Below are positions 1 to 59,859 of a stretch of DNA of 64,000 bases, piece by piece. Positions within the stretch are counted from its first letter, which is position 1, and each line of letters begins with the position of its first letter. Origin of the DNA: an uncultured Candidatus Saccharibacteria bacterium (GTDB taxonomy: Bacteria; Patescibacteriota; Saccharimonadia; Saccharimonadales; Saccharimonadaceae); NCBI GenBank assembly GCA_947425245.1, contig CANDYU010000001.1:63028-127027 (forward strand), written 5' to 3'. The notes under the pieces were generated by a model. It made no database searches, had not been told where the DNA came from, and was given only the letters and a program-made list of their open reading frames with translations. The translations under genes were made by a program, and so were the position numbers.

Positions 1-641
1 TGGCGGAGAAACTCATCCACAGCGTGCGACGAGCCGGGGAGTTCGGGGTTGTTATAGTCGTGGACGAGCATGACTCCTTGGGGCGAGAGGCGTGGCGAGA
101 CTAAATGAAGACTGGTTTTAATGGAGCCATAGAGGTCACCATCAAGAAAAGCGAAGGCAATTTTAGAAGGGAGATCTTTATCAGTAAGTTCGTTGAACCA
201 GGCTTTTTTTACGATGATGTTATGAAGACCAGCTTTCTTGATCTTGGTGATTACTTCACGCTTAGTAACGAGGAGCTCGCCGGCCTGGAAGTTTTGGCCA
301 GCACCAGAGGAATCTTCGGAAGTCTTAGTGGGGAGACCGGCGAATGAGTCATAAATCCACAGTTTTTTAGCAGTTTTCCACTGATTTTCCACAGGTTTTC
401 CACAGGATGAAGAGGAGAGCTGATAATTCCCCAGTTCGGGGTCGGACGGATTAGAGGAGTCAGAGGGGCTGGACCTGGTGGTAGCTGGAAAATGTTGGGC
501 AAGCAGTTTACCGAGGAGGATTGAGGTGTCGCCTCGGTAACAGCCTAATTCGACATAGTCTCCTTCTATAGTAAGGGTTTTGGTGGCGAGTTCGAGGATA
601 ATTTGGGTCTCCTCGGTGGTGACTTGATCGTTTGTTGACAT
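1..641 (-). CDS. Class I SAM-dependent methyltransferase, TylF/MycF (macrocin-O-methyltransferase)-like; C-terminus lies beyond the window edge
   Basis: My own reverse-strand translation from the ATG at 639-641 is open to the window edge, so it is absent from the ORF track. Motifs: EGDYVELGCYRGDTS, LWIYDSFAGLP, AFAFLDGDLYGS, GVMLVHDYN. A low-complexity insert of about 45 aa carries three TTTTCCAC(A/T) repeats. Confidence 0.6.
   Translation of the reverse strand, partial: MSTNDQVTTEETQIILELATKTLTIEGDYVELGCYRGDTSILLGKLLAQHFPATTRSSPSDSSNPSDPELGNYQLSSSSCGKPVENQWKTAKKLWIYDSFAGLPTKTSEDSSGAGQNFQAGELLVTKREVITKIKKAGLHNIIVKKAWFNELTDKDLPSKIAFAFLDGDLYGSIKTSLHLVSPRLSPQGVMLVHDYNNPELPGSSHAVDEFLR
375..405. 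repeat. Three DnaA-box-like 9-mers (TTTTCCACT, TTTTCCACA, TTTTCCACA) at 11-bp spacing inside the methyltransferase ORF
   Basis: Direct reading: starts at 375, 386 and 397. The same 9-mer occurs in the dnaA flanks. Confidence 0.6.
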
Positions 642-3454: not shown

Positions 3455-4033
3455 TTAGTTGATGATCAACTCTGCAAGCTCGGCTTCGGTAAAACCAAAG
3501 CGATCCTGCAAAAGCCGGCACACGAAGTCCTTCGGCCAGTACAGCCAGCGAACCGCATGCCATGCGGTAAGGACCTCCTTGACCATCCCCTTATCGACGG
3601 GACGATCAATGTATGACGCCAGATGATGCACGCCATCACAATCAGAACGATTGCAGAGCGTAAATTCGTATCCTTCACCCGAAATCTTTTGTTCGCTATA
3701 GTTCCACCAGCCGTACTCATCCCGACGATTGTTCAGGAGGATGGTGTATTCCTCGGCGGAGTGGGCCCGAGCCTCTTTCCCGAAGGAAAGCAGCCACATC
3801 AGCAGGTCGTCGTTCCTGTGCGGAACTTTGAGCTTGTCGATGCTAGGCTTTGAGCCATTACAAGACACTATAAAAGCGTCCCCTGGCTTCACATTGGCAC
3901 GGTCGGCGACTTTTTCTCCCTTCCAGAAGATGGTCAGCTGACCCTTCGGGTTATAGCAATAAGTTGTAGACATGCTATTACCTACTCTCTCCTGGTGAGC
4001 GATTTCCTTGACGAATAATCTCTGGTTTGCCAT
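3455..4033 (-). CDS. Hypothetical cytoplasmic protein
   Basis: 192-aa ORF with no recognisable motifs. It is an isolated gene followed by about 390 bp of non-coding DNA. An alternative start at MSTTYCY is possible. Confidence 0.4.
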   Translation of the reverse strand: MANQRLFVKEIAHQERVGNSMSTTYCYNPKGQLTIFWKGEKVADRANVKPGDAFIVSCNGSKPSIDKLKVPHRNDDLLMWLLSFGKEARAHSAEEYTILLNNRRDEYGWWNYSEQKISGEGYEFTLCNRSDCDGVHHLASYIDRPVDKGMVKEVLTAWHAVRWLYWPKDFVCRLLQDRFGFTEAELAELIIN

Positions 4034-4357
4034 AATGTTCTTTCCCTACTACCCGGTTCCCAGCCGGCGTTCGTTCTCGAATGATAAACTGACAAAGATT
4101 TACCATTCTTGCCCCGCCGGGGCTGAGCATTCCTGTATTTTTGTGGGTAGCACAAGAAAGCTATCGAAAAACTAAAACCACTTTCAATGTACTTAAGCCC
4201 TTCTAAGGCATTGTCAGTTCTACGTAGTAGAGCTGGGTTATATAGATATAACCGTAAGCCTTATCAAGCTTATGTTTACATTGTAGCACAGACGATGAAA
4301 ATTGTCAATGGTTTTTATAGTTAATTTGCAAAAATGGAAATAAACTTGGGAAACAAT

Positions 4358-6338: not shown

Positions 6339-6486
6339 AACTAGTTGAGAGTAGCTAGGCTACCATTCTTTTCGGGACACGCTCGTGCCGGCCTGTCGTT
6401 ACAGGCGGCTTACTCGCTTCGCCCGGCTCCCGTTGTCGCCGGAGATTCCCGAGAAAGAACCGTAGCCTAGTTGCTCGCAGCTAGTT
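6339..6486. repeat. Long imperfect hairpin element (about 148 nt) in the dnaK 5' leader
   Basis: Outer arms AACTAG..TAGCTAGGCTAC..TCGGGA pair with TCCCGA..GTAGCCTAG..CTAGTT. The inner hairpin GCCTGT-CGTT-ACAGGC matches the one in the 17138-17265 element. Confidence 0.5.
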
Positions 6487-6523
6487 CTTAAATAAATGCA
6501 ATTCTTATTTCAATGTTATATCA

Positions 6524-6550
6524 TTAGCAGTCGTATGTCAAGACTGCTAA
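6524..6550. promoter_or_regulatory. CIRCE-like HrcA operator (TTAGCAGTC-N9-GACTGCTAA)
   Basis: A 9-N9-9 inverted repeat that closely matches the CIRCE consensus TTAGCACTC-N9-GAGTGCTAA, located upstream of dnaK. Confidence 0.8.
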
Positions 6551-6558
6551 TTAAGATA

Positions 6559-6587
6559 ATTGTAGCAAATTGGCAGTCGAGTGTCAA
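6559..6587 (-). promoter_or_regulatory. Putative sigma-70-type dnaK promoter interleaved with the CIRCE pair
   Basis: On the minus strand a TTGACA (6582-6587) lies inside the spacer of the upstream CIRCE. It is followed by a 17-nt spacer and TACAAT (6559-6564). Confidence 0.5.
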
Positions 6588-6596
6588 GAGTGCTAA
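6570..6596. promoter_or_regulatory. Second CIRCE-like operator (TTGGCAGTC-N9-GAGTGCTAA)
   Basis: Same 9-N9-9 architecture, 19 bp from the first copy. Confidence 0.7.
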
Positions 6597-6790
6597 TTTA
6601 TGATTACAAGAACGGTGGAGAAAAGCGGCAAGAGCGGTAATATGCCGTTACGTAAACGGTAGAGCAAAGTGTCAATAATACTAATGTGCTTGGCATGAAC
6701 GATAGAAAAGCCTCCAGGAGGAATCGCTGGGGGCTGAGTTTAGAGGTTACGCAGATTAGAAAGAATAATAGAATGCAAAGAGAAAGCATA

Positions 6791-11586: not shown

Positions 11587-11896
11587 TTCGTCCGTAGCGG
11601 ATATGTTTATCGCACTCACAGCTCCGTTCGATATTTCGGCCTCGGCGGTTATGGCTGGTCCAGTACTACTTCCTCAATATACTATGACGGAACAACTGGA
11701 TTAGCAGATTATTACCTCACTTTCTATGTTAGCGATGTCCGCCCATCAGACGGTCCATTCTATCGTTATTATGGTTTCCCCATCCGTTGTCCACGCTCCT
11801 GACGTCGCTGACAGAAGCTCGCTCTCTCGGAAATAAAAATGTAAACATTTTTGCTTCTCTCGAGAGCTCCTCAGTTGGCGTACTAGGTTAGATAAG
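11587..11896 (+). repeat. Lectin-like cassette B (diverged), head-to-head with D; its conserved tail is split by an 84-nt insertion
   Basis: FVRSGYVYRTHSSVRYFGLGGYGWSSTTSSIYYDGTTGLADYYLTFYVSDVRPSDGPFYRYYGFPIRCPRS* with the stop at 11800-11802. The tail remnant TGGCGTACTAGGTTAGATAAG resumes at 11876. Confidence 0.7.
11792..11875 (+). repeat. 84-nt hairpin-forming insertion inside the conserved cassette tail (between ..CCGTTGTC and TGGCGTAC..)
   Basis: An almost identical insertion occupies the same position in cassette G (63746-63828). It contains the nested hairpin AGCTCGCTCTCTCGGAA..AAAATG-taaa-CATTTT.. Confidence 0.65.
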
Positions 11897-12049
11897 ATTG
11901 GATATTAGCATTTCACCTGCGAGGGTGGTTGGTTTTCTAGTCTGGTGACGCTCTCTTCGTCTAAAGACTCAGACTCGCGTCAGCCTAGAATGATCAAGAC
12001 TAGAAAACCCAACCACACCTTCGACGCGGTGAAATGACAATATTTAATC
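11896..12049. repeat. Long imperfect hairpin element (about 154 nt) immediately 3' of the cassette B tail
   Basis: Arms CATTTCAC..GGTGGTTGGTTTTCTAGTC pair with GACTAGAAAACCCAACCACACC..GTGAAATG. Confidence 0.5.
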
Positions 12050-15686: not shown

Positions 15687-17110
15687 TATTTCGCCCCTTT
15701 GCGGAAGAGGACGGCCCAGAAAGTCTTAAACATAATACGAAAGTCGAGGCTCATGGACCAGTTTTGGATATAGTAAAGATCAAGAGCTCGGCGTTCTTCA
15801 AAGGAAATGTCGCGGCGGCCGGAGACTTGGGCGAGGCCGGTGACGCCGGACTTAACGGAGAGGAGGAGGGAGCGGTCGCCGTAATGATGAAGTTCGCCCG
15901 GAACGAGAGCACGAGGTCCGACTAGCGAAATGTCGCCGCGAAGGACATTGAAAAGTTGGGGTAGCTCGTCGAGCGAAGTGGCACGGAGAAAATGGCCGAG
16001 TTTTGTAATACGAGGATCGTTCGGAATCATGTCGCCGTTCTTGCGGTATTTTTTTATGAGATGGGGCTTGCCCATTTTAGTAAAGGCTTCTTCGGGAGAG
16101 AGGCCGGAATATTCGGGTTTCATGGAGCGGAACTTATAGATTTTAAAACGATGATCGTAGCGGGAGAGGCGGGTTTCGGCATAGATGGGCGAAGCGGTGG
16201 GGTCGGAGAATTTTTCGATAAGCCAAATAATCGCCATGGGGATAGCGGCAATGATAAGAACGAGAGTACTAATAACGAGATCACAGGCACGCTTGGCGAT
16301 CTTTGCACTGCCAGCCAGGGGTGTAACACGGACAAAAATTGAGGGAGTGTCGCCGATTAGCTCGAGGTCGCCCATTTGTGAGGTCAACATGGCATTCGAG
16401 GGGACGAAATAGTAGAGGAGATGGTGGTTAATTGATTGACGATAGACATATTCAGTGCGGCGATCGTCGGTTTGGAAAATAACATCGGGCTTCGTGCGAC
16501 GAAGGGCCTCTTTAAGCGAAGAATATTGTTTCCGGCGAAGGTCTTTAGGGATAAACTTAGCCCCAGCGACAACGCCGGCTAACGAAAAACCAGATTCGGG
16601 GAAGGCGGAGATGTAGTTTGCGAGGTATTCGGTGTTTTTGCTATTGCCGATGATGACGGCACGGAGGGTGACTTTACGGGTCTTAAAGGTGTGGCTACGG
16701 ATTAGGCGGATTAAGCCACGGAAGAGGCAGAGGCTGAGAAAACAGGTCAAAACGGCATAGAGAACCATGATGCGGACTGGGAAAAGGTCGACATGGAAGA
16801 AAAAATCGTAGCTGATAATCGCCATCATACCAACGACTGAGGCAAGAAAGAGTCGGCCGAACTCTGACCAGCGGCTATGCTTCAGGAAGATGGATTTACT
16901 ATAGAGGCCAAAGGCGGCAAGAACCACTAAATATACAGGTAGAAGAACGAGAATGGAAAGAACGAAGTCAAGAGGCTCAGCTTTAAAGTAGAAAGGGCGT
17001 TGGTCGAGATGAATGCGAATCAAGTAGGCTACCAAAAAGGAGAGCAAAATTGCACAGGCGTCTCCGAGCACTAGAAAAAAATGAAAAATCAGCCCAAAAT
17101 CTCTCCTCAT
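15686..17110 (-). CDS. Polyprenyl-phosphate hexose-1-phosphate transferase (WbaP/EpsB-like initiating sugar transferase)
   Basis: 474 aa with N-terminal TM segments and a C-terminal bacterial sugar transferase domain (LDELPQLFNVLRGDISLVGPRA, GVTGLAQVSGRR). Confidence 0.9.
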   Translation of the reverse strand: MRRDFGLIFHFFLVLGDACAILLSFLVAYLIRIHLDQRPFYFKAEPLDFVLSILVLLPVYLVVLAAFGLYSKSIFLKHSRWSEFGRLFLASVVGMMAIISYDFFFHVDLFPVRIMVLYAVLTCFLSLCLFRGLIRLIRSHTFKTRKVTLRAVIIGNSKNTEYLANYISAFPESGFSLAGVVAGAKFIPKDLRRKQYSSLKEALRRTKPDVIFQTDDRRTEYVYRQSINHHLLYYFVPSNAMLTSQMGDLELIGDTPSIFVRVTPLAGSAKIAKRACDLVISTLVLIIAAIPMAIIWLIEKFSDPTASPIYAETRLSRYDHRFKIYKFRSMKPEYSGLSPEEAFTKMGKPHLIKKYRKNGDMIPNDPRITKLGHFLRATSLDELPQLFNVLRGDISLVGPRALVPGELHHYGDRSLLLSVKSGVTGLAQVSGRRDISFEERRALDLYYIQNWSMSLDFRIMFKTFWAVLFRKGAK

Positions 17111-17137
17111 GTAGTTTATTATAACACAAAGCTTCGT

Positions 17138-17265
17138 CTTTATTACTTCGCAAGCTTCTTCTCGGACCGGATGTCACGCCATCCCGTCGTTACGGGTGGC
17201 GTGCGTCCTACGCCCTCCCTCGTAAGGTCCGGGAGTTCCTCTAAGAAGCTCATGAAGTAATAAAG
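17138..17265. repeat. Long imperfect hairpin element (about 128 nt) in the divergent wbaP-like/galE promoter region
   Basis: CTTTATTACTTC/GAAGTAATAAAG and AGCTTCTT/AAGAAGCT form the outer stems. The core TCGGACCGGATGTC...GAGTTCCTCT is shared with the 59497-59859 element. The inner hairpin is CCCGT-CGTT-ACGGG. Confidence 0.55.
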
Positions 17266-17315
17266 ATAGAGGCTTCGTTTGTGCTATAATTAATCTAATA
17301 ATTCTTGGAGGAAAT

Positions 17316-38957: not shown

Positions 38958-40064
38958 ATGGAGATTAAAATTATTCAAGAAAAGTTAGCAAAGGCACTAA
39001 ATAATGTGAGTCGGGTGGCAGCAGGGTCTAGAGCATCATTGCCTATTCTCAATAATGTCCTTATTAGAGTAGACGATAATAAGGTAAGTTTAACGACAAC
39101 TAATTTAGATATGGCAGTGGTTAGTTTTTTACCGGCACGTCAATGTAAAAATGGGGTAGTAACTGTACCGGCACGGTTGATTGCAGAGTTTGTGGGAAAC
39201 CTACCTAAGGGTGAGGTGGTAGAGATTAATGGCACTGAGGATAAAGTAGTAGTTAAGGCGAGTGGATATAGTTCAACGATTAACGGGGCGTCGGCGGAGG
39301 ATTTTCCAGAATTACCGGAAATTGATGTGGAAAAGGTGGTGAAGTTTCAGATGGGGGTGGATGATTTTAAAGATGGTTTGTCGCAGGTGATGATTGCGGC
39401 AAGTAATGATACGACACGACCGGCATTAACGGGTGTATATTTTAACACTTTTGAAGGGGAACTTTATTTAGCAGCGACGGATGGGTATAGGTTGGCGGAG
39501 CGGAAATTTATCAGTAAAGTGAATAGCGAAGTAAGAGCGATTGTACCAGCAGCAAGCTTACAGGAGGTTCTTAGGAGCTTGAACGATGACGTGGATGAGA
39601 TTGAGATATGGTTTGATGAGACGCAGGTAAGGTTTCGTTTGGGTGATATCGAGATTACTTCTAAGTTGATTGATGGCTCGTTCCCTGATTATAGGCAGTT
39701 AATTCCAAAACAAACGGAGATTGAGGTCGGTCTTAAGAAGGATGAGTTAGTGCGAATTACAAAGTTGGCGGCATTGTTTGCGAAAGAGGTGGGCGGGTCG
39801 ATTACCTGTGAGGCTAATGTTGAAAACGGAAACTTCATAGTTGCGTCGGTAGCGAATGAATTAGGAGAAAATAAATCGGAAATTAAGGCGACGGTGGAGA
39901 CTGATGGAAAGGTGACGTTAAATTCGCGGTTCTTGTTGGATGCACTAAATGCCTTAAATGGAAGCGAGGTAGAGTTTGGGTTTTCAAATCGGTTAGATCC
40001 AGTAGTTTTGAGGGTGAAAAAAGCGGATAATTATGTGCATATCGTGATGCCGCTGAAGAGTTAG
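38958..40064 (+). CDS. dnaN: DNA polymerase III beta sliding clamp
   Basis: 368 aa with three-domain clamp architecture (LTTTNLDMA, LAATDGYRLA), in dnaA-dnaN-recF synteny. Confidence 0.95.
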   Translation: MEIKIIQEKLAKALNNVSRVAAGSRASLPILNNVLIRVDDNKVSLTTTNLDMAVVSFLPARQCKNGVVTVPARLIAEFVGNLPKGEVVEINGTEDKVVVKASGYSSTINGASAEDFPELPEIDVEKVVKFQMGVDDFKDGLSQVMIAASNDTTRPALTGVYFNTFEGELYLAATDGYRLAERKFISKVNSEVRAIVPAASLQEVLRSLNDDVDEIEIWFDETQVRFRLGDIEITSKLIDGSFPDYRQLIPKQTEIEVGLKKDELVRITKLAALFAKEVGGSITCEANVENGNFIVASVANELGENKSEIKATVETDGKVTLNSRFLLDALNALNGSEVEFGFSNRLDPVVLRVKKADNYVHIVMPLKS

Positions 40065-40066: not shown

Positions 40067-41077
40067 ATGGTAGTCGAGAGTGTAAAGCTGGCGAACTTTC
40101 GTAGTCACGAAATAATGCAGGTGAAGTTTTTTCCACAGACGACAACGATAGTTGGGGAAAACGGGAGCGGTAAGACTTCGATTTTAGAAGCTGTGTACGA
40201 GGCTTTACAAGGGAAAAGTTTTCGGGCGGTGGATAGGGAGATTTTGCGAAGGGGGGCGGAGTTTTATCGGGTGGAGTTGAATTATCGAGATGGACGTAGG
40301 ATAGTGGTGGTTTATGATGGAGCGAAGAAGGAGTTTTTAGTTGAGGATAGGAAGGCGAGGAGGTTGCCGAAGAAGGTGAAATATCCAATTGTATTGTTTG
40401 AGCCGGATGATTTGAATCTTGTGGGGAGCAGTCCGACGAGCCGGCGGGGGTATTTTGATAGGGTCTTTAATCAGCTGTCAGATCAGTATGGAGTAGCACT
40501 TAATAGGTACAATAAGGCGTTGCGACAGCGAAATGAACTCTTGAAGCAGGAAGTAGTTAATATTGGGGATTTGTTTTCTTGGGATGTGCTTCTAACGAAA
40601 TATGGGGCGGAGTTACGAGACCTGAGGAAAAGCTTTGTGGAAAAGATAAGTGAGAAATACACAGAAGTGTACCGGTCGATTGCGGAGAATGCGGATGAAG
40701 TGAGGCTGGAGTATGTTACGGAGGTGGAGTCGGAGAGTGAGTTTTTAAAACGGTTGGAGGCAGACTTTGAGAGAGATAAAATCTTGGGGCATACGGGGTT
40801 TGGAGTGCACCATGATAATTATGAGTTCGTTTTTAATGGGGTGAAAGCGGACGGTTCGGCGAGTCGGGGTGAGGTGAGGTCGATGGTGATTGCACTGAAG
40901 TTTATCGAGGCGGAGATGATTGTGGGGAGGCTTGGGCAGGTGCCGGTGGTGTTACTGGACGATGTGTTTTCGGAATTGGATGAGACGAGGCAGAAATGTT
41001 TGGTGAAGAACTTTAGAAATAATCAGGTTATTTTGACGAGCGTTGGAGAAGGAGATATTGAGATTAGTGGGGAGTAG
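40067..41077 (+). CDS. recF: DNA replication/repair protein RecF
   Basis: Walker A GENGSGKTSILEA, an SMC-like signature and the C-terminal LLDDVFSELD. Confidence 0.9.
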   Translation: MVVESVKLANFRSHEIMQVKFFPQTTTIVGENGSGKTSILEAVYEALQGKSFRAVDREILRRGAEFYRVELNYRDGRRIVVVYDGAKKEFLVEDRKARRLPKKVKYPIVLFEPDDLNLVGSSPTSRRGYFDRVFNQLSDQYGVALNRYNKALRQRNELLKQEVVNIGDLFSWDVLLTKYGAELRDLRKSFVEKISEKYTEVYRSIAENADEVRLEYVTEVESESEFLKRLEADFERDKILGHTGFGVHHDNYEFVFNGVKADGSASRGEVRSMVIALKFIEAEMIVGRLGQVPVVLLDDVFSELDETRQKCLVKNFRNNQVILTSVGEGDIEISGE

Positions 41078-42769: not shown

Positions 42770-44668
42770 TTATTTTTCGTTAACTTGTTGTTCGCAGACT
42801 TTGTAGCGTGTTGATCTGGGCTTTTCAGTGTAGCTGAAGTGCATAATGTCAATATTGCTTCCGAAGCAGCCTCCCCAATAAAAACCATGGTCATACCAAA
42901 TCTGGACGATTTGATCGTTAATATGGAATGATCTAGTGTCACTAGGATTGTAAACGGATATGTTGCTAGTGTTTGAATAGTATGGGTTGTCGGCTGAGTT
43001 AATATCGATAGCGACACCGAATGAGTGTTGCGATAATGAGCTGCCACCGGTGACGATACGCCAGTTATAGGCGTAAGTGTCGCTACTTTTAACTCTAAAA
43101 CCAGCAGCGACCATGTCTTCAAAAACAGAAGTAATTTCACTAGCAAGCTTTTTGTGAACTGTTAAACGCATAGTGGTTTTTACGCCGGATTCGTTGAGGA
43201 TGGGGACCTCAATAGATGTGATGTATTGTTGCATGACGGATTCTCTGGTCGGGAAGCCATTTCCGTCAAAGAGCCAGGCGACACGCTCGTTGTTGGAGAT
43301 GTTGGCGGCTTCACCAATATTAGAGGCACCGGAAAGTGGAATACAGTTACTAGACATACCAAGGGACGGCGAATAATTTGTGAAGTTTTTAACGATAGCT
43401 TGGCCTTCGGGGGAGTTAACGAAAGTTTGGAGGGATTTAACGGAGTTTCGCATTCCTTCAATATTGCCATATCCAGCACCATTAACATTTCCTTGAACCC
43501 AAGTGGGGCCGATTTTTTCGAGGTAAGTAATGGGATCGGTAACGCCTAGGGCTTGGTCATGGTAGCCATTGGTGAGAGTCTTTCCATATTGTTGGAAGCC
43601 TTCACCGAGATTTTTACCTTGGATGTTAGCACCGCCAGCTGGTGTTCCGGGTGGGCAACCGTTCCCCCAAAAGTTGTTGCGTCCACAGACGCTGTTTGGA
43701 TCCTCGTAACGCATTTGGACTAGAATAGCGATCCATGGAGCACCAACGACACGACCGAGCTGGTAGGCGAGGTCACCGTAGTTTTCGAGAAGGGTTTTCA
43801 TTGATTCGCTGTCGCCGTCGGAAAAGGTAGCGGGCGGGAAGTCGGTGTATTGCTTGTCGGCGTTTTTGGCTTTCATAATAGCATTATAATCTCCGGTACC
43901 GACGAATTTACCGGATGCGGGAGCGGAGTAGGATTGGTATTTTTTGTAGATTTCTTTGGCGTAGTCGCGGCGTTTGTTAGCTTCTTGCCAGTTGCTTCGG
44001 GATGTAAGGCTTTGGACATAAGAATCTATTAAGGTGCTGGATCCACCATAGGCTCCTTCGACTATAACAAGAAAAAGATCCGAATAACTTTCAGCACCGG
44101 CTTCGCCAGTTTTGTTGTCAACATTATCGAGTTTACTGGCGAAGTTTTGAAATTGTTGTTCTTGGATAAGGTAGGTAAGTTCAATTTCGATTGCCTTACT
44201 GATGGCGTCGTCCGGAGCGTTGGTGTTACTCCAATAACCGTCGAGACCAGCTTGAGACATTAAACTCTGAAGGGTACTTTTTCGGCTACCACCCCATTGA
44301 ACGAGACCAATATAGCCACTGCTATTAACTACGAAAGGATTAAAAGTGCTCTCTTGTTGAAGATTTCCCATGATACCAGCGATAACGGCAATATTATCGG
44401 AAACTCCAGGTATATCAGCTTCTACGAAAAAATTCCAGATTTTGTCTGCGTTGGTAGTACCAGGGGCCGTAGAAGTGCTACTGCTAGGGGAACAGTCCTT
44501 TTGTCCGGAGGGGTCATAGTAATAAATGCCACTTTGGTTATAGAAATCAAGAGTACCAGAATCTATGGTTGCCGCGTAGCAACTTATTGAGTTAAGTAGG
44601 CTAAGGAAGAGGTAGAGTATCCCTAGAAAAAGAGGCCCCCTCACTTTAGACGATTGGATAATGGCCAT
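42770..44668 (-). CDS. Secreted bifunctional cell-wall hydrolase: N-terminal lysozyme/'phage tail lysozyme'-like domain plus C-terminal M15 (VanY-like) peptidase domain
   Basis: Start trimmed to MAIIQSSKV (44668), directly after the upstream stop. It has a signal peptide. Motifs: IMGNLQQESTFNP..GLVQWGGSRK near the N-terminus and SQHSFGVAIDIN..DIMHFSY near the C-terminus. Confidence 0.7.
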   Translation of the reverse strand: MAIIQSSKVRGPLFLGILYLFLSLLNSISCYAATIDSGTLDFYNQSGIYYYDPSGQKDCSPSSSTSTAPGTTNADKIWNFFVEADIPGVSDNIAVIAGIMGNLQQESTFNPFVVNSSGYIGLVQWGGSRKSTLQSLMSQAGLDGYWSNTNAPDDAISKAIEIELTYLIQEQQFQNFASKLDNVDNKTGEAGAESYSDLFLVIVEGAYGGSSTLIDSYVQSLTSRSNWQEANKRRDYAKEIYKKYQSYSAPASGKFVGTGDYNAIMKAKNADKQYTDFPPATFSDGDSESMKTLLENYGDLAYQLGRVVGAPWIAILVQMRYEDPNSVCGRNNFWGNGCPPGTPAGGANIQGKNLGEGFQQYGKTLTNGYHDQALGVTDPITYLEKIGPTWVQGNVNGAGYGNIEGMRNSVKSLQTFVNSPEGQAIVKNFTNYSPSLGMSSNCIPLSGASNIGEAANISNNERVAWLFDGNGFPTRESVMQQYITSIEVPILNESGVKTTMRLTVHKKLASEITSVFEDMVAAGFRVKSSDTYAYNWRIVTGGSSLSQHSFGVAIDINSADNPYYSNTSNISVYNPSDTRSFHINDQIVQIWYDHGFYWGGCFGSNIDIMHFSYTEKPRSTRYKVCEQQVNEK

Positions 44669-44669
44669 A

Positions 44670-45377
44670 TCAATCAATATCCTCGGCGGTGTTTGGAGAG
44701 ACGGTGACGATTGGTGAGTTGAGGTTAAATGAATCAATCCAGGCGTTAAGTTCGCTAGAATATTGGTTGAAGTTGTCGGTGTTAATAAAAACATAATCGG
44801 CGGCAGTGTCGGAGTCGGTGCGGTCAGCAATGGTGACCATATAACTGTAACCATAATCATCGGGGGAAAGCCGGATGGTTAAAGTGTAGGTTCGACCGTC
44901 AGAGACGTCAAGATTCATGTGATAGGTATAAGCAGGGTTGGGGAGTTTTTTGTAGGATGATTCGACGAGAACGCAAGCGAAAGTATTTTTATCGTAAAAG
45001 GTGTTTTCATGGGGTGCGGAAGCTATTGAATCTTGATCTAGAATGACCGAATTGAGGTTGGTATAGGTTTGGTTGGAGTTTGAATTACCAATAGAATAGT
45101 TGAGAAGATAGCGGTTTTCAAAATAGGTTGCTGGAGCAGTTTCTGGCTCTTCGGATTTTGGTGTATTGGCCTCAACAAGGAGAATGACGAGGGTAAAAAT
45201 AGATACGATGAAGGCAATTATTACGATAAAAGAGACAACTGGATGAGTATGGAGAAAATCACGAAGTTTGTCTTGAAATGTACGCCCATTAGTAGGGTTT
45301 TTTTGTGGTGGGGAAAAAAATGAGGAGGTTTGGGTTGAGAAAGGGTTTAGATTGGTTTGGCTTGTTGTACTTGTCAT
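44670..45377 (-). CDS. Bitopic membrane protein, positional analogue of VirB8/PrgL (function not established)
   Basis: 235 aa with a single TM segment after a roughly 50-aa cytoplasmic head. It lies between the two hydrolase genes. Confidence 0.4.
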   Translation of the reverse strand: MTSTTSQTNLNPFSTQTSSFFSPPQKNPTNGRTFQDKLRDFLHTHPVVSFIVIIAFIVSIFTLVILLVEANTPKSEEPETAPATYFENRYLLNYSIGNSNSNQTYTNLNSVILDQDSIASAPHENTFYDKNTFACVLVESSYKKLPNPAYTYHMNLDVSDGRTYTLTIRLSPDDYGYSYMVTIADRTDSDTAADYVFINTDNFNQYSSELNAWIDSFNLNSPIVTVSPNTAEDID

Positions 45378-47290
45378 TATTTTTTAATCCCGTGTAAATT
45401 GTCGCACTTTAGTCCAGCATCTAGGAAATGTTGTGGGGGATAAGCACTGTTGCCCCATCCTGCCGAGTCGGCAGTCATCCAGTTACCGTCGGCGTCAACT
45501 CCTACGATACCGATATAGTGTCCACCGCTTGAGAATGGAGGATTATTGTTTCCGGTACCAGTAGCACCAGAAGTGTGAATCATCCAGCCATCGGCAAGGG
45601 CGGCTTCGATGACACCAATACAGCTCGATCGACTAGTGCTGAAGTCGTAGTATTGAACGCCGTAATGCTGAGCGAGAACGGCGGTGATGCTATGGGAACT
45701 ACCCTGACCAGGAACATGCATGCGGGCCTTACCGGCGACATCGGCGGTGTCGGCGGGGGTAATTTCTTGACCAAGAATAGCAGTAATCATCATAGCAAAA
45801 GAGGCTGGTCCGCAACCGGAACCTGCGATGGTGTCAAAGTAGTCATTAACTGGGCCATAGATACCGAGATCTCCATAGGCTAGAGGTCCCCACGGTTCAT
45901 CAGTTTGGAAATATTGAGGGACGCCCTCGCCATTATAGGTGCGGATACAGTCGATTAGGGTACTACGCCGTGAGTTCATACCGACGACGGCTTCATGAAT
46001 GGTTTGGGCGAAGAGTTCGTTCCCTTTGCCAGAAGTCGGGTGGACGTCGAGTTGGCCACTTTCATTTTTAACGTAGGTTTCGGGGCCTTCTGGTTGGGAG
46101 GTAACAGCATTTTCCCAATCAGCAACGAAGACATTTTTATTTTCGGCGGCAAGGGAGTCAAAAAGAAGGTTGTTTTGGGCATAATCATGGGCACCGAGGG
46201 AGAAATTGTTAACGAAGATGACTATACGGTCGAGGCCAGCGATATTAATGACTTTTTGGGCTGACTCTTGGGAGACATGGTCGGTATTGGTGCCAAGAGC
46301 AAAAACAATGATGTCGCGAGGGTTCGTCATTTGTTCAAGGATTTCGACACCTGCATCAAATTGACGGCTAACTGCGGCATTGATTTGGACTTCGGGTAAG
46401 AGTTTTCTAATTTCGGCTTCGGCACCAACGGTGATTGAATCACCAATGATGACGACATTTGAACCATCTTCTTCTGTGGTGCTGGAAGAACCGGGGTTGG
46501 TGAAAATCTTACCTTTGAATTGGTCGTAGTATGTATGGGCGGTGGCTGTTCTGGTGGATAATGTGTTGTCTCTAGGACCTTCGTAATTGGTGAAAATCCA
46601 TTGAGCTGCTTCATCAACGGTGGTTGTGCTGTAAAAACCAAGATATTCGTTTTCGAGCTCGTATTTTACGTATTCTAACTCGAGTGCAATAAGTTCACGG
46701 GCGACATCTTCCCCGGCGAGTTCGATAAACTTATCTCCATCGATAGTATAACCGACACTATATGTTTCTCGATTGAAGAAATATTCTAAGAGATTAGAGT
46801 TTTTGCTTTGGATATATTTCATAAAACCTTGTCGTCGCGTATGATATGACCATTGCACGAGCCCAATACCATAGCCGTTAACCGTGCTATCATTAACTAG
46901 GTCCATGTTTGGATGGCCTAAATAGCCATTACCACCAACACTTCCTACTTCGTGTTGTACTGGGTTGAAATAGTTGGATTCGTGTGCCATGTTTCCCATG
47001 ATCCCGGCGGCTTGCTCTTCGGTCATGAAGCTTGTGAGACCACTCCAGACCATTTCGGCAGCTTTTCCACCTGCAACATTAATATCGCCAGTGTAGCAGT
47101 TGCGAGCTTTGCTACCGACTGGGTTGTAGTAGTGGATGTCGCTTGCGTTGAAAAAGTTGAGGGTTGCACTGTCGAGGGAGGCACCAAAACACTGATCGCA
47201 AAGAAGAAAGCTAAGGAGGAGACAGAGTGCACTTTGGAGGAGACGGGGGAGGTGTTTTGGGATTCTTTTACATTTTTGGAGGAATATCAT
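45377..47290 (-). CDS. Secreted trifunctional cell-wall hydrolase: lysozyme-like, SGNH/GDSL hydrolase and C39/CHAP-like cysteine peptidase domains
   Basis: Signal peptide, then IMGNMAHESNYFNP..GLVQWSYHTRR, VVIIGDSITVG, GSGCGPASFAMMI and GGHYIGIVG. Confidence 0.7.
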   Translation of the reverse strand: MIFLQKCKRIPKHLPRLLQSALCLLLSFLLCDQCFGASLDSATLNFFNASDIHYYNPVGSKARNCYTGDINVAGGKAAEMVWSGLTSFMTEEQAAGIMGNMAHESNYFNPVQHEVGSVGGNGYLGHPNMDLVNDSTVNGYGIGLVQWSYHTRRQGFMKYIQSKNSNLLEYFFNRETYSVGYTIDGDKFIELAGEDVARELIALELEYVKYELENEYLGFYSTTTVDEAAQWIFTNYEGPRDNTLSTRTATAHTYYDQFKGKIFTNPGSSSTTEEDGSNVVIIGDSITVGAEAEIRKLLPEVQINAAVSRQFDAGVEILEQMTNPRDIIVFALGTNTDHVSQESAQKVINIAGLDRIVIFVNNFSLGAHDYAQNNLLFDSLAAENKNVFVADWENAVTSQPEGPETYVKNESGQLDVHPTSGKGNELFAQTIHEAVVGMNSRRSTLIDCIRTYNGEGVPQYFQTDEPWGPLAYGDLGIYGPVNDYFDTIAGSGCGPASFAMMITAILGQEITPADTADVAGKARMHVPGQGSSHSITAVLAQHYGVQYYDFSTSRSSCIGVIEAALADGWMIHTSGATGTGNNNPPFSSGGHYIGIVGVDADGNWMTADSAGWGNSAYPPQHFLDAGLKCDNLHGIKK

Positions 47291-50022
47291 GCGATGAGGC
47301 TCCGGTCGCGTAGGGTTGCTCGCGTGTCGGTATAGAGGTAGTTGTCGGTAATAATAGCAATAGTAGTATTGTTGTCAAGGTCGGTGGAGGATGGGTTTGC
47401 GAATAGAGGGGTGTTTTCGGCGTCGAGACGAGCGATAATTTCGGCACTGGTCTCGGGTTCGCTAGCTTTGTCGGTGAGGGCGATGCGGGTGCTGGCATCA
47501 TAACCGTCGAGGAGTTGGTAGTATTCTACAACGGCGAGAACTAATTCGGCATCATCTTTGCTGACCCCGGAGATGCGGGCGAGGATGCCGGAAGGCGAAT
47601 TGTCAGTAGGGTTTTTAGCTTCGTATTCTTCGAGGAACTGGGCAACTAGGCTCTTTTGGTCGCCACCAAAAGCACCTATTTGTGCGAGGGAGCGTTGCTC
47701 TTGGACGAAGTGCTGATAATATTTCATCTCACGATTCCAGAAGTTAGAGTTTTTCTCGGTGTAGCCACAGTATTCACCGGTGGCCCATTTGTAATTGTTG
47801 AAAGAATTAACGCTGTTTAAGATGTTGATAATATCACCGATGACGGGTGTAGAATTGAGGAAGTCGTTACCTTTTTCTAATGCACTCATAATTCCAGCAT
47901 CGGCCATACCCCAAGGTGAAGTACGCTTGTCGCAAAAAGTGATTTTTTTAGCTAAGTTGCTGTCTTCTTTGATTGAGCAGCTACCGTTACGGCAATCGAG
48001 TTGGGATGTAATAACTCTTTCGTATTCAGGGTCGTCTGGAGTGACATTGAGCATGGAGGTATCAGTAACGGTGACGCCATCACAATACATGGAGCCGTCG
48101 AGACCGATTTCTTCCATTTGGGGGCAGTCGCCATGGGAAGTTAGGTAGGCACTTTCGTCGCCAACGGCGGATACGGTGCCGGTGATGGTGCTGAGGGACT
48201 TGGCTGTGGTACGCATGATGGTGCCGATGGTTGAGGTGGTGTTAGAGGTGAAAATGGGGAGCAATGAGTAGGCAATGCTGCCAAGGAAGGTGTTTTTTGA
48301 GGTGATGTCGAAGGGGCTACGCTTTAGGCGGTCAACTTCGGCATCGAGGGCGGCGATTTGGTTGCTGTATTGGCTATATTGAGCAATCTTGGTACTAGAA
48401 GCGGGGGCTTGACCGTTGGCGGATTGGGCGAGCATGAGGTTCATACCGGCTCCGCGAGCAAATGCGTTGCCAGCTGGGATACCGGTGAGCTCGGTTATGC
48501 TGTTAACGAAGAAGGTACGGGCGATGGTGGGGATCATAAAGCTGAGGAAGGCACCTACGGCGACGCTACCGATAGCGGCTGCACCGAGTTTAAGGGCGTA
48601 ACCACCAATAACGGAGAGACCGCCGGTAGCGAAGGATAGGCCGATGGAAACGATGGAGGCGACAGATTCGGTGGCTTGGCTGGTGCTACAAACAGCAATT
48701 GAGGCGCCGGTCATCGCTAAGGCACTAAGGGCGGTTTTGCCGAGGCGTTCAAGAGAGTAGTTTGCGGCGGAGGCTTGGTTGACGGGTGCTCCGCTCATGA
48801 CAACTTGGACACCGTTGGCTTCGGCGGGTGAACCGGTTTCGGTGATGGTGGGGAGGGAGGTTTCGGCGTTGAGATAAGATGAGCCATTATAGTTGATAGG
48901 TTTTGAGTAATCCTCAATAGTTGTGGTGGCGGGGGTGATAAAGAAGTTGAGGAAGGAATTGATTGCGGAAGAGTCTCCATGGCCGGCTTTCATTTTGCTG
49001 ACATTTTCGATGAGACCCATGAAATAGGAGTAGGATTGGAATCGTTCCATGGCGGAAGCGACGGAAGAGACTAGGCTGGCAACCTTTAGAGCGGTACATC
49101 CCCAGTTTATGGCATGGGAGGCATTGGATACGGCTTGAGAGACATTGGATATTTGATTAATATAATTACTAGCTTTAGCGTTGGCAGTTTCTAAATTGTC
49201 ATCAACACTAACTTTAGAGTCACTGTCTTCGCGTCTATAAACGGTTTCGGTAGTACTATTGTCGGGGTCATCGGGGTCGGTTGTAGTTTCTTCATCTTGG
49301 TAGGTGGTAGTGATATTAGTACTACCACCGTCTAGTTCATCTGTCATGATGTTGCGGAACTCGAGTTCGTCAGCTTCGGTGTCCCCGGTTTGAGTGTAGT
49401 TGCTGTATAGATTGCGGCTGATGTTGACGCTTTGGTATGTGGTGTCGGCTGGCATGTCATAGAAATCAATGACATTGCCATAGCGTGAGTCGATAACATC
49501 GGCACGGAACTCATAGTTACTGTTATAACTATTCATAAAATCATCAACACCGATAACTTCATCACCCCAGTTTAAGGCGTTGCCATTGACTTCAATACCG
49601 TTGCTGTTGAGCTGTTTGCTGAATTGTTCGGAGATTGACTTGTAGGGTTTTGTCCAAGCTGGCCCGCTGTTATTATTGGTGCCGTTATAGCGGAGGGCAT
49701 ATCTAATGAGGTTGGCGGAAATGGTCTTTGAAGTGGCGTTTTGGGTGTTGGTTGCACTAGTGAAAAGGGATTCGATAGCGGGAGCGAGTAAGGTATTTGA
49801 GGAGCCGAGGAAGGCACCACCCCCTACAAAGAGCATGGCAATAGAGATGATGGCGGCAAGACCTTTTTTCTTCCCTTTCATGGTGAAGCGGTTTTGGGTG
49901 GGGGCTAAGGAGGAGCGACCGCTGCCAGTGTAGAGCGAGTTAGGAGTATCAGAAACGGAGCCAGATTCGAGTGATCGGCTGGCGGCGTTTTCTGAATTTC
50001 TTAGTAGATTTATACCGGACAT
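47287..50022 (-). CDS. Large (911 aa) membrane protein of the T4SS operon, unknown role
   Basis: An N-terminal TM segment, a central block of Gly/Ala-rich TM helices and Cys-rich distal domains. It is translationally coupled on both sides. Confidence 0.5.
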   Translation of the reverse strand: MSGINLLRNSENAASRSLESGSVSDTPNSLYTGSGRSSLAPTQNRFTMKGKKKGLAAIISIAMLFVGGGAFLGSSNTLLAPAIESLFTSATNTQNATSKTISANLIRYALRYNGTNNNSGPAWTKPYKSISEQFSKQLNSNGIEVNGNALNWGDEVIGVDDFMNSYNSNYEFRADVIDSRYGNVIDFYDMPADTTYQSVNISRNLYSNYTQTGDTEADELEFRNIMTDELDGGSTNITTTYQDEETTTDPDDPDNSTTETVYRREDSDSKVSVDDNLETANAKASNYINQISNVSQAVSNASHAINWGCTALKVASLVSSVASAMERFQSYSYFMGLIENVSKMKAGHGDSSAINSFLNFFITPATTTIEDYSKPINYNGSSYLNAETSLPTITETGSPAEANGVQVVMSGAPVNQASAANYSLERLGKTALSALAMTGASIAVCSTSQATESVASIVSIGLSFATGGLSVIGGYALKLGAAAIGSVAVGAFLSFMIPTIARTFFVNSITELTGIPAGNAFARGAGMNLMLAQSANGQAPASSTKIAQYSQYSNQIAALDAEVDRLKRSPFDITSKNTFLGSIAYSLLPIFTSNTTSTIGTIMRTTAKSLSTITGTVSAVGDESAYLTSHGDCPQMEEIGLDGSMYCDGVTVTDTSMLNVTPDDPEYERVITSQLDCRNGSCSIKEDSNLAKKITFCDKRTSPWGMADAGIMSALEKGNDFLNSTPVIGDIINILNSVNSFNNYKWATGEYCGYTEKNSNFWNREMKYYQHFVQEQRSLAQIGAFGGDQKSLVAQFLEEYEAKNPTDNSPSGILARISGVSKDDAELVLAVVEYYQLLDGYDASTRIALTDKASEPETSAEIIARLDAENTPLFANPSSTDLDNNTTIAIITDNYLYTDTRATLRDRSLIA

Positions 50023-50028
50023 AGAGGG

Positions 50029-52930: not shown

Positions 52931-52938
52931 ATAGCTCC

Positions 52939-53700: not shown

Positions 53701-53816
53701 ATGATTCTATTTTATCATGGATGGGAGAGAAAATATAGTAATATGCCCACCAAAATATAACACCTCCTATGATATATAGAATATATGATGATCTGATAGT
53801 TTGTCAAGCAAAGTTT

Positions 53817-57326: not shown

Positions 57327-57492
57327 TTGTCAAACATCCCAATAAATCCCAATGCAGGGTTATGACCTAATTATAGCACACATAAGCATGATAGTCAATA
57401 TAAAATATGTAATTTTGTCTAGTTTGTCAATGGTTATGCTTAAAAACGGATGAGTGGTGGATTTTCGGGTGAAATAATGCTAGAATGGTGGC

Positions 57493-58176: not shown

Positions 58177-58187
58177 GAAGGAGGAGT

Positions 58188-58577
58188 ATGAGGAAGATTT
58201 TAGTAGTGATGGGGTTGTTGGTATTATCAGTGTTGGGATTGGGGGTCTTGGTTAATTCCCCAGTGATGGCCTTATCGAATGTTTGTGATGATCCGGACAT
58301 TGCGGAGGATTTAAAGGAGGCGGCGGGGTGTGAGCTGGATAGTAATGATAACGTCTTGAATGTAGTAGTGGGGCTGATTGAGGTGGCGTTAGGGTTGTTT
58401 GGGCTAATCGGGGTGGGGGTAATTGTGTATGGGGCTTTGATTTATACGACTAGTGTTGGCGATACTGGTAAAACAGCAAAAGCGAAGAATATTATATTGT
58501 ATGGAATAGTAGGGTTAGTAGTGTCGATGTTGGCTTTTGCGGTCGTGCGGTTCGTTTCCGCAGTAATTGGCGGGTAA
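58188..58577 (+). CDS. T4SS pilin (TrbC/VirB2-like)
   Basis: Signal peptide, a Cys pair, then TM-TSVGDTGKTAKAKN-TM. Confidence 0.75.
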   Translation: MRKILVVMGLLVLSVLGLGVLVNSPVMALSNVCDDPDIAEDLKEAAGCELDSNDNVLNVVVGLIEVALGLFGLIGVGVIVYGALIYTTSVGDTGKTAKAKNIILYGIVGLVVSMLAFAVVRFVSAVIGG

Positions 58578-59491: not shown

Positions 59492-59496
59492 TATAA

Positions 59497-59859
59497 GGAT
59501 ATCCCACTAGAATTAATATAAGTATACTCCCAGAGTTTTGGTTACTTGTTTTCGGACCGGATGTCGTGTCGTCCCGTCTGACCGAAGGTCAGAACTCCGG
59601 GCGTCGATTCGGAAGCAGGAATGTTACACATTCCTGCTTCACTCATCTCCTGGGAGAAGCGTCACGGGCGACACGCAACCTACGACCAACGCGACTAAAG
59701 TCGCTACCAGCTGGGCGTCACCTCAAGATAAAGAATGCGAAGCATTCTTTATCTATTCGGTTCCTACGGCTGGACGGTCGTAAGCTCCGAGAGTTCCTCT
59801 AACAAGCAACCAAAACTCTGGGAAGATACTTATACCAATCCTAGTTCTGGTGGGATACC
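59497..59859. repeat. Giant imperfect hairpin element (about 363 nt) between the pilin operon and cassette C
   Basis: The outer arms of about 55 bp (GGATATCCCAC..CCCAGAGTTTTGGTTACTTGTT and its complement) enclose several perfect internal hairpins, e.g. GAAGCAGGAATG-ttaca-CATTCCTGCTTC. The core ends TCGGACCGGATGTC and GAGTTCCTCT are shared with 17138-17265. Confidence 0.55.

What the first reader, a model, noticed from the sequence alone, without database searches (positions are those of the whole stretch)
17138..17265. Family of long hairpin elements with a related core and covarying outer stems
The element at 17138-17265 (divergent wbaP-like/galE promoter region) and the element at 59497-59859 share core ends TCGGACCGGATGTC ... 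GAGTTCCTCT. Their closing stems are completely different in sequence yet fully complementary: CTTTATTACTTC..AGCTTCTT in one, CCCAGAGTTTTGGTTACTTGTT in the other.

The dnaK-leader element (6339-6486) shares with the 17138-17265 element the inner hairpin (G/C)C(C/T)GT-CGTT-AC(A/G)G(G/C), and again has a different outer stem.

Classical MITEs keep their termini and vary in the interior. The pattern here is the reverse and looks like selection for structure. Candidates are a structured RNA family, RNase III or antisense regulatory modules, or cruciform DNA sites. A fourth long hairpin (11896-12049) has a different core.
Basis: seen in the sequence. Interest (0 to 1): 0.65.

Follow-up and report, generated by a model that had tools for sequence, protein, structure and literature searches.

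The report
Palindromic insertion elements of Saccharibacteria
The long hairpins are copies of a Y-shaped, GC-rich palindromic DNA element that is scattered through gut Saccharibacteria genomes and, in relatives, sits in frame inside essential genes, much like the "selfish" palindromes of Rickettsia; they are probably not a regulatory RNA family.

Summary
E1 (17138-17265), E2 (59497-59859) and E3 (6339-6486) are the three most stable folds in the window. They share a three-way-junction core and have unrelated but complementary outer stems. E4 (11896-12049) is a different hairpin. Rfam has no match.

A motif scan of metagenomes, followed by a covariance model, found 14 family members in held DNA, all apparently from Saccharibacteria.
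- Three are orthologous dnaK-leader copies (window, L034, L060).
- One lies in a queH-queA spacer.
- Eight lie in frame inside housekeeping genes (typA, obg, valS, queA at two sites, dnaX twice, once in antisense orientation). None has a stop codon in the frame used.

Relatives with about 90% identical DnaK have neither E1 nor E3.

Covariation is strong: 91% of cells are paired, 17 of 24 pairs changed on both sides, and 0 of 500 shuffles reached this. G·U pairs are equally common on both strands.

The outer stems seem to be built from or extended into the local flanks (queH end, queA flank codons, the two -10 boxes around E1).

Best reading: a Rickettsia-palindromic-element-like insertion element with a conserved core and private stems, apparently undescribed for this phylum. 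A functional RNA role, for example in the dnaK leader, is not excluded.

The parts
17138..17265 (-). E1: family member between the divergent wbaP-like and galE genes. The core matched by the model is 17153-17249. The outer stem arms are 17137-17160 and 17243-17266.
   Evidence: z = -11.2; 47.2 bits, E = 1.4e-9. It is identical in six assemblies of the species, except for a 34-nt deletion allele.
17118..17130 (-). Extended -10 box TTTGTGTTATAAT of the leaderless wbaP-like gene. It is the outermost left part of the large palindrome centred on E1.
   Evidence: Read. It pairs with 17278-17290 in the fold. Relatives have TGTTATAAT directly before the wbaP ATG.
17278..17290 (+). Extended -10 box TTTGTGCTATAAT before galE. 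It is an inverted near-copy (12 of 13 bases) of the wbaP box.
   Evidence: No counterpart was seen in the short galE-wbaP spacers of L035 (96 nt) and L037 (36 nt).
17131..17137 (+). GCTTCGT, the left copy of a 7-nt direct repeat flanking E1. The right copy is at 17272-17278. It may be a target duplication.
   Evidence: ACGAAGC on the other strand, shuffle p about 0.05. No such repeats were found at the other five intergenic copies, so this is inconclusive.
59497..59859 (-). E2: a core like that of E1, with further hairpins nested in the tips of both inner hairpins. The outer stem is about 45-55 bp (59506-59550 / 59801-59845). It lies between the last T4SS pilin gene and the tail of a minus-strand cassette gene.
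   Evidence: (z = -14.4). Not matched by model R1 because of the nested inserts, so membership rests on identity with E1. Fixed within the species.
6339..6486 (-). E3: family member in the dnaK 5' leader, in sense orientation. The core matched by the model is 6363-6460.
   Evidence: 38.7 bits, E = 2.5e-7. Orthologous copies are in L034 and L060. It is absent from the leaders of L035, L037, L038, L039 and L040.
6513..6587 (-). Two promoter-like sites, each overlapping a CIRCE-type inverted repeat, upstream of E3. They place E3 inside the dnaK transcript.
   Evidence: (TTGACA-17-TACAAT and TTGACA-17-TAACAT) and the sequence.
11896..12049 (.). E4: a long imperfect hairpin with a different core. 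It is not a member of this family.
   Evidence: z = -7.4/-8.7. No hit with R1 or nhmmer.

Best explanation
E1, E2 and E3 are copies of a dispersed palindromic insertion element of Saccharibacteria.

Anatomy. It is a GC-rich core of about 90 nt that folds, on either strand, into a three-way junction. The junction has a closing helix (TTCTT...CCGARAAGAA), a variable hairpin A, and a hairpin B tipped by CCYGTAACGACRGG. A stem that is private to each locus closes the whole.

Where it lands. It inserts, or has inserted, at the DNA level into spacers, leaders and coding regions. Inside genes it persists only where it keeps the frame open, and it is translated as an extra loop.

Inferred steps.
- The private outer stem is made from the local flank, or grown into it, by fold-back (template-switch) copying at the hairpin.
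- The same process, together with selection for a foldable element, keeps the two arms complementary while their sequence drifts at the neutral rate.
- Hairpin tips are preferred places for further insertions, as in E2.

In this window the three copies are passengers. E3 rides in the dnaK 5' UTR. E1 sits between two divergent promoters, one of which may have arisen as the inverted copy of the other. E2 sits in a convergent 3' spacer.
For: Shown.
1. Family membership. Model R1 finds 14 members in held DNA with one architecture, and none in about 95 kb of five related loci.
2. Insertion state. L035, L037, L038, L039 and L040 (DnaK 89-91% identical) have short dnaK leaders without the element. 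L035 and L037 have galE-wbaP spacers of 96 and 36 nt against 205 nt here.
3. Coding copies. These are typA, obg, queA, dnaX and valS; a second queA site and a second, antisense, dnaX copy; and a class-V-aminotransferase-like fragment and others.
4. Reading frames. The frame used has 0 stops in all coding copies, and two different frames are in use (PRNDG, PVTTG). The intergenic copies E1, E3 and L060 have stops in nearly every frame.
5. QueA alleles. The alignment shows one allele with no trace of the element at site 1 (P0179). It also shows deletion derivatives (P0133; P0177, which keeps a QEK remnant of the element's 3' end), nested insertions (P0157, P0214, P0216) and a frame-shifted version (P0178).
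6. Covariation. 91.3% of cells are paired, 17 of 24 pairs have two-sided changes, 0 of 500 shuffles reach this, and slid controls give 38-58%.
7. No strand asymmetry. There are 31 G·U pairs on the sense strand and 30 on the antisense strand.
8. Flank origin of the stems.
- In L063 the 5' arm consists of the last queH codons (KESEK, aligned with KDKKS/KDLKN). The 3' arm is its inverted copy. L068 and L069 have queH and queA 4 nt apart with no element.
- At queA site 1 the outer 10 bp are host codons on both sides, and they covary between alleles (ACG..CGG, GTG..CAT, GTG..TAT).
- Around E1 the palindrome runs on into both -10 boxes.
9. No Rfam family matches.
Against: - No transposase, recombinase or reverse transcriptase was seen in the window.
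- No convincing target-site duplications were found.
- No recent filled/empty polymorphism was found. All copies examined are fixed and old: E1 and E2 are identical across samples. So mobility is inferred, not shown.
- The E3 core is 90% identical to its L060 orthologue while four-fold sites of dnaK are saturated (43%). A neutral relic would not show that. It implies sequence constraint, conversion from other copies, or function.
- 7 of the 8 in-gene copies, and the dnaK-leader copy, are in sense orientation, which hints at a transcription-linked bias.
- For typA, both arms look inserted when compared with E. coli BipA. The flank-copy model is therefore documented at only two or three loci.
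- Translation of the in-gene copies is inferred from open frames, not from proteomics.
Confidence: 0.55

Rival explanations
1. The element is a functional structured RNA. It would act as a cis-acting module in transcripts (for example stability, an RNase III site or a thermosensor in the dnaK leader), and selection would act on the RNA fold.
For: - Covariation is strong.
- E3 is conserved at one position in the dnaK 5' UTR in three species whose neutral sites are saturated. Its core is 90% identical between the window and L060.
- Most copies are sense to a gene.
- The sense strand folds more stably in 7 of 10 copies.
- Several G·T pairs in the L069 queA stem lie on the sense strand.
Against: - The same element sits inside ORFs of unrelated housekeeping genes with the frame kept open in two different frames.
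- One dnaX copy is antisense.
- E1 lies upstream of both flanking -10 boxes.
- G·U counts are equal on both strands, and one-sided (wobble) changes are rare compared with two-sided ones.
- Five related species manage dnaK without it.
- No Rfam family matches.
Confidence: 0.2
2. Only the GC-rich core is mobile, and it homes into the tips of hairpins or palindromes that already exist (terminators, divergent promoter palindromes, β-hairpin codons). On this view the private stems are simply the old targets and need no special copying mechanism.
For: - Nested hairpins sit in the tips of both inner hairpins of E2 and in the hairpin-B tip of QueA P0157.
- The QueA allele without the element (L063) has a 6+6-bp palindrome ACGATA-T-TATCGT exactly at the insertion point.
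- E1 sits at the centre of two inverted -10 boxes.
- E2 sits in a convergent 3' spacer, where terminators are expected.
Against: - The L068/L069 queH-queA junction has no counterpart of the 3' arm.
- The dnaK leaders and galE-wbaP spacers of relatives show no hairpin of 25-45 bp.
- Stems of 25-55 bp are much longer than ordinary terminators.
- The pre-existing palindrome at queA is only 6 bp, against 10 bp or more in the filled alleles.
Confidence: 0.12
3. The hairpins are DNA-level functional sites. They would act as cruciforms or single-strand hairpins bound by a host protein (recombination, replication or nucleoid organisation), comparable to REP sites.
For: Both strands fold equally well, pairs are over 90% Watson-Crick, and the loop and junction sequences are conserved.
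Against: A location inside essential ORFs and presence or absence between close species do not suit a required host site. No associated protein was identified.
Confidence: 0.08

Closest known systems
Rickettsia palindromic elements (RPE-1 to RPE-10; Ogata et al. 2000, 2002, as summarised in PMC10969869)
   Same: They are 100-150-bp hairpin-forming repeats. They are dispersed in a small-genome, host-dependent bacterium, occur both between genes and in frame inside unrelated housekeeping genes, are read through as extra peptide, and have no known transposase.
   Different: This is an unrelated phylum (Saccharibacteria/CPR). Here only the three-way-junction core of about 90 nt is shared, and the closing stem is private to each locus. 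To my knowledge RPE copies are alike along their whole length. Nested insertions at hairpin tips and covarying host flank codons are not part of the RPE description I could read. Sequence relatedness to RPEs was not tested.
Bacterial MITEs (Correia, ERIC, BOX, RUP and others; PMC10969869)
   Same: They are short, non-autonomous, able to form hairpins, and sometimes intragenic with an open frame.
   Different: MITEs are defined by conserved terminal inverted repeats, target-site duplications and a parent IS. Here the termini are the variable part, duplications are not supported, and no parent IS was seen.
REP / REPIN elements with RAYT transposases (PMC3733652 for REP classes; REPIN from my own knowledge)
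   Same: They are palindromic and extragenic, and their hairpin structure is preserved by compensatory change.
   Different: REPs are 20-40 nt with a conserved GTAG/CGTC tag and stay outside genes. No RAYT gene was seen here. This element is larger, branched, and also occurs inside genes.
Coding palindromes of Nematomorpha mitochondria (PMC6649704, abstract seen); mitochondrial GC clusters and double-hairpin elements of fungi (my own knowledge)
   Same: They are inverted repeats embedded in protein-coding genes, with both arms translated. The GC-rich hairpin modules are thought to spread or grow at the DNA level.
   Different: Those are organelle genomes and have no shared three-way-junction core. 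I did not read the paper beyond its abstract.
Integron attC sites (my own knowledge)
   Same: They are defined by folded single-strand structure rather than by sequence.
   Different: In attC sites the base of the stem is conserved and the centre varies, which is the opposite of the pattern here. No integrase was seen.

Membership tests
Rickettsia palindromic elements (as a kind: in-frame selfish palindromes) | A dispersed repeat of about 100-150 bp that folds into a stable hairpin | tested here: met
   14 copies of 108-148 nt, plus E2 at 363 nt. Fold z-scores are -7 to -14.
Rickettsia palindromic elements (as a kind: in-frame selfish palindromes) | Copies inserted in frame inside unrelated housekeeping ORFs without disrupting them | tested here: met
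   Met in relatives: typA, obg, queA (two sites), dnaX (two copies) and valS, with 0 stops in the frame used. No in-gene copy lies in this window; its three copies are intergenic.
Rickettsia palindromic elements (as a kind: in-frame selfish palindromes) | Sequence homology to RPE-1..10, or occurrence in Rickettsiales | not tested
   No RPE sequence was compared. The host is Candidatus Saccharibacteria. I do not claim membership of the RPE sequence families, only of the same kind of element.
Rickettsia palindromic elements (as a kind: in-frame selfish palindromes) | The inserted peptide is actually translated and tolerated at the protein surface | tested here: inconclusive
   Open frames and conserved insert peptides support this. 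The insert lies between two predicted β-strands of QueA, but the model is poor (pLDDT 53). No proteomics data were available.
MITE | Terminal inverted repeats conserved among copies | tested here: not met
   Outer arms are unrelated between copies. Even orthologous arms are only 43-67% identical, while the core is 68-90%.
MITE | Target-site duplications | tested here: inconclusive
   A 7-nt direct repeat flanks E1 (p about 0.05). Nothing was found at the five other intergenic copies.
MITE | A parent IS or transposase with matching ends | not testable with these tools
   No transposase domain was found in the ORFs of at least 129 aa that were scanned.
Any Rfam RNA family | Score at or above the family's gathering threshold | tested here: not met
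   Only a tRNA passes in the window. The best sub-threshold hits are generic miRNA-precursor hairpins, at 28.6 bits against a threshold of 100.
REP/REPIN | A 20-40-nt unit with a GTAG/CGTC tag, extragenic, with a RAYT gene | tested here: not met
   The size, the branched core and the in-gene copies do not fit. No RAYT-like domain was seen in the window.

The most novel reading that the evidence does not exclude
The element may be a structure-defined mobile or self-extending DNA. A conserved three-way-junction core would be the only inherited part. Its closing stem would be templated anew from the insertion site by fold-back copying, that is, an inverted duplication of the target flank. This insertion signature is not described for bacterial mobile DNA. 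A by-product would be the creation of new inverted promoters (as perhaps for galE next to E1) and of new, co-varying peptide segments on both sides of a protein loop.
Probability: 0.25. Interest if true: 0.85.

Novelty: new variant of a known kind. Interest (0 to 1): 0.6.

Why it matters
In-frame palindromic elements were presented as a peculiarity of Rickettsia. A second, unrelated lineage of tiny-genome, host-dependent bacteria now appears to carry an analogous but differently built family (conserved branched core, private stems). That would make this a recurrent mode of genome and protein evolution in reduced genomes.

It also bears on three practical points:
- how long palindromes survive and co-evolve;
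- why Saccharibacteria proteins carry odd GC-rich inserts;
- metagenome assembly and annotation, because contigs break or become chimeric at these hairpins.

I found no description of it for this phylum in the held literature. Absence from that library is not proof of novelty.

Tried and rejected
Copy number and orientation in the window's own genome could not be measured.
- Genome-contig scan with CGTAAGNTCCGNGAGTTCCT. It gave only 27 chance hits in coding DNA of unrelated phyla, and the window's species is not in that collection.
- Viral-contig scan: no hits.
- RNA evidence. The 'RNA' runs are kept only as contigs at 3-7x depth, so they say nothing about transcript ends. They only confirmed the 34-nt deletion allele.
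- MAFFT plus RNAalifold on all nine copies misaligned the 5' half. I built the model from the five most similar copies instead.
- E2 is not recognised by the model, and its nested hairpins are not family copies by that test.
- The peptide-profile search of 1.84 billion proteins gave only 11 hits, two of them translated CRISPR arrays.
- The AlphaFold model of QueA is too poor to use.
- GC skew of short contigs against element orientation was uninformative.
- Rejected ideas:
  - self-cleaving ribozyme, SRP, 6S or Y-RNA-like RNA (no Rfam support);
  - retron or DGR accessory RNA (no reverse transcriptase nearby);
  - intron-like excision (frames are kept open, and deletion derivatives stay in frame).

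Full report
**What is in the window**

In a sliding 160-nt fold of the whole window, E1 (17138-17265), E3 (6339-6486) and E2 (59497-59859) rank first to third, and E4 (11896-12049) ranks fifth. Fold z-scores against dinucleotide shuffles run from -7 to -14.

E1 and E2 share the exact 14-mer TCGGACCGGATGTC and the exact 10-mer GAGTTCCTCT. Each occurs only at these two places in 64 kb. Their inner helix differs by four two-sided changes in six pairs (ACGCCA/TGGCGT against GTGTCG/CGACAC). Their outer arms are unrelated but 87-88% complementary.

E2 is an E1-type core with extra hairpins nested in the tips of both inner hairpins. E3 shares the hairpin CCYGTCGTTACRGG and the overall three-way-junction plan. 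E4 is a different hairpin.

Rfam 15 gives only a tRNA at gathering scores. Below threshold it gives nothing but generic miRNA-precursor look-alikes.

**Organism and context**

The DnaK homologues that carry a name are labelled Candidatus Saccharibacteria. The species occurs in pig- and mouse-gut assemblies.

E3 lies on the transcribed strand between two promoter/CIRCE units (6513-6587) and the dnaK ribosome-binding site, so it is in the 5' UTR.

E1 lies between two divergent extended -10 boxes. TTTGTGTTATAAT sits 7 nt before the leaderless wbaP-like ATG. TTTGTGCTATAAT sits before galE. E1 is therefore probably outside both mRNAs (read by eye).

E2 lies between the stop codon of the last of four T4SS pilin genes and the tail of a minus-strand cassette gene.

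No transposase, integrase or reverse transcriptase domain was found in the ORFs of at least 129 aa that I scanned.

**Relatives: the elements are insertions**

Syntenic loci from species with 89-93% identical DnaK were fetched.
- L035, L037, L038, L039 and L040 have short dnaK leaders (about 30-50 nt after the -10 box) and no hairpin.
- L035 and L037 have galE-wbaP spacers of 96 and 36 nt, against 205 nt here, again with no hairpin.
- L034 (DnaK 93%) has an orthologous element at the same place in the dnaK leader.

Within the species, E1 is identical in six assemblies. The exception is a 34-nt internal deletion between short direct repeats, also seen in a second data set. E2 is fixed too.

**The family**

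I scanned the metagenome collection with a pattern taken from the conserved parts: TTCTT-N38-60-CYGTAACGACRG-N12-26-CCGARAA. It returned 21 loci. Six are true hairpin elements and the rest are chance matches.
- One (L060) is a third dnaK-leader orthologue.
- The other five lie inside long ORFs: TypA/BipA, Obg, QueA, DnaX and ValRS.

A covariance model was built from the five coding copies. With it I found in held DNA:
- E1 and E3, and the L034 and L060 copies;
- a copy in the queH-queA spacer of L063;
- a second copy inside dnaX, this one antisense;
- three more copies in the queA genes of L068 and L069.

It found nothing in about 95 kb from the five relatives that lack E1 and E3.

All members share one plan:
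- a private outer stem;
- a TTCTT/AAGAA helix;
- a closing helix, often with a tandem G·A;
- a variable hairpin A;
- a hairpin B tipped by GTAACGAC.

**Are the in-gene copies read through?**

The frame used has no stop codon in any coding copy. Two different frames are in use, giving ...EPRNDGR... or ...RPVTTGA.... In contrast, E1, E3 and L060 carry stops in nearly every frame.

The QueA alignment of 17 Saccharibacteria proteins shows two insertion hot spots and:
- one allele with no trace of the element at site 1 (P0179);
- deletion derivatives that stay in frame (P0133; P0177, which keeps a QEK remnant of the element's 3' end);
- nested insertions (P0157, P0214, P0216);
- a frame-shifted yet open version (P0178).

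Compared with solved structures, the Obg insert lies in the linker after the G domain. The TypA insert lies just before the residue that aligns with N248 of the BipA chain.

A profile of the insert peptide also picks up a class-V-aminotransferase-like fragment, an unannotated protein and an apparent QueA/ArgRS chimera.

Translation is thus inferred from the frames. It is not shown by proteomics.

**Structure conservation**

On the model-fitted alignment of 11 copies:
- 91.3% of cells are standard pairs, against 73.7% in shuffles and 38-58% when partners are slid;
- 17 of 24 pairs show two-sided changes, in 48 cells;
- 0 of 500 shuffles reach this.

The alignment is fitted to the structure, which inflates the numbers somewhat, but the margin is large.

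Four-fold degenerate sites of dnaK are only 43-49% identical among the window, L034 and L060. That is saturation. Against this background the orthologous outer arms are 43-67% identical yet still paired. The core is 90% identical for E3 against L060 and 68% for E3 against L034. So arm sequence drifts at about the neutral rate, pairing is kept, and the core is held.

**RNA or DNA?**

Points favouring DNA:
- G·U pairs are equally common when either strand is folded (31 against 30), and over 90% of pairs are Watson-Crick.
- One-sided changes are rare next to two-sided ones.
- An antisense copy exists inside dnaX.
- E1 is probably not transcribed as part of a gene.

Points favouring RNA:
- 7 of the 8 in-gene copies and the dnaK-leader copy are sense.
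- The sense strand folds somewhat better in 7 of 10 copies.
- The E3 core is far more conserved than neutral sites.

I weigh this as favouring a DNA-level element. An RNA role is not excluded, particularly in the dnaK leader.

**Where do the private stems come from?**

Three loci speak to this.
1. L063. The 5' arm (AGGAATCAGAAAAGG) consists of the last codons of queH (KESEK). These align with KDKKS/KDLKN in L068 and L069, where queH and queA are 4 nt apart with no element. The 3' arm is the inverted copy of that arm and has no counterpart in the empty sites.
2. queA site 1. The outer 10 bp of the stem are host codons on both sides (T/V-L-D/N ... I-K-R/H/Y). These align with residues of the allele without the element, which has only a 6+6-bp palindrome there. 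The paired codons covary between alleles: ACG..CGG in L055, GTG..CAT in L068, GTG..TAT in L069. Amino acids therefore change on both sides together.
3. E1. The palindrome runs on beyond the hairpin into the two -10 boxes, which are inverted near-copies. The relatives' spacers show no such second box.

This suggests that stems are built from, or grow into, the local flank by fold-back copying.

Two points count against generalising:
- For typA, both arms look inserted relative to E. coli BipA.
- Target-site duplications are not supported.

**Comparison with known systems**

The closest known kind is the Rickettsia palindromic element: repeats of about 150 bp, many in frame inside unrelated metabolic genes (PMC10969869). 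The present family works like that but differs in phylum and in architecture. It has a conserved branched core, private stems, insertions at hairpin tips, and flank codons drawn into the stem.

It fails the defining features of MITEs (conserved termini) and of REP/REPINs, and it matches no Rfam family.

I found no description for Saccharibacteria in the held literature. Several earlier notes of this scan report the same phenomenon in other Saccharibacteria genomes. They are not independent evidence, but they agree with what I found before reading them.

**Verdict**

The best explanation is an RPE-like palindromic insertion element with a conserved core and locally templated stems (confidence 0.55).

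Noticed in passing
window 10955, 11283, 11876(-), 12451, 59869, 63301, 63829(-): There are seven copies of a cassette tail, CTAACCTAGTACGCCAGACAACGGATGGGG. Read on the other strand it encodes ...PIRCLAY*, the end of a Fibrobacter-succinogenes-major-domain-like protein; a locus of a relative has such a gene. Strains differ at 59902-59918, inside one cassette. It looks like a silent-cassette or diversity-generating system. E2 and E4 each abut one tail.
   Followed up: partly
window 1-64000; dnaA 37220-38614, dnaN 38958-40064, recF 40067-41077: GC skew on the + strand is about +0.26 over the whole window (G 29%, C 17%), whatever the gene orientation. It does not change sign at dnaA-dnaN-recF. The closely related L034 contig shows almost no skew.
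   Followed up: no
window 4034-4300 (minus strand): Downstream of dnaK there is a near-consensus promoter (TTGACA...TGTGCTACAAT). It is followed by a leader of about 240 nt before the 192-aa ORF 3455-4033, which has no Pfam match. No Rfam hit. It may be an undescribed leader or riboswitch.
   Followed up: no
window 17182-17215: A 34-nt deletion allele of E1, between short TCCC direct repeats, removes half of hairpin B. It is present in assembly L003 and in run X5.
   Followed up: partly
window 59491-59620; L065, L066; run X7 at 17036-17265: Assemblies tend to break inside or at the edge of these hairpins. One database protein (P0246) looks like a QueA/ArgRS chimera joined at the repeat. The elements therefore fragment and mis-join metagenome assemblies.
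   Followed up: no
window 6513-6600: Upstream of dnaK there are two tandem promoter-like sites, each overlapping a CIRCE-type inverted repeat (TTAGCACTC-N9-GAGTGCTAA-like). The arrangement is conserved in all relatives examined.
   Followed up: partly
window 42770-59491: This is a type IV secretion cluster. It has a TraG/VirD4-like ATPase, a PrgI-like protein, two lysozyme/peptidase proteins, large ORFs of 911 and 1169 aa without Pfam matches, and four tandem T4SS-pilin paralogues.
   Followed up: no
L037 and L039 11900-11975: A GC-rich structured spacer between dnaK and ackA in two relatives is the strongest fold in those loci. It is not matched by the family model.
   Followed up: no
P0241, P0244: Two 'proteins' hit by the insert-peptide profile are translated CRISPR arrays (repeat peptide ASTEPRHDGRGC). 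They are false positives caused by a similar GC-rich hairpin.
   Followed up: no
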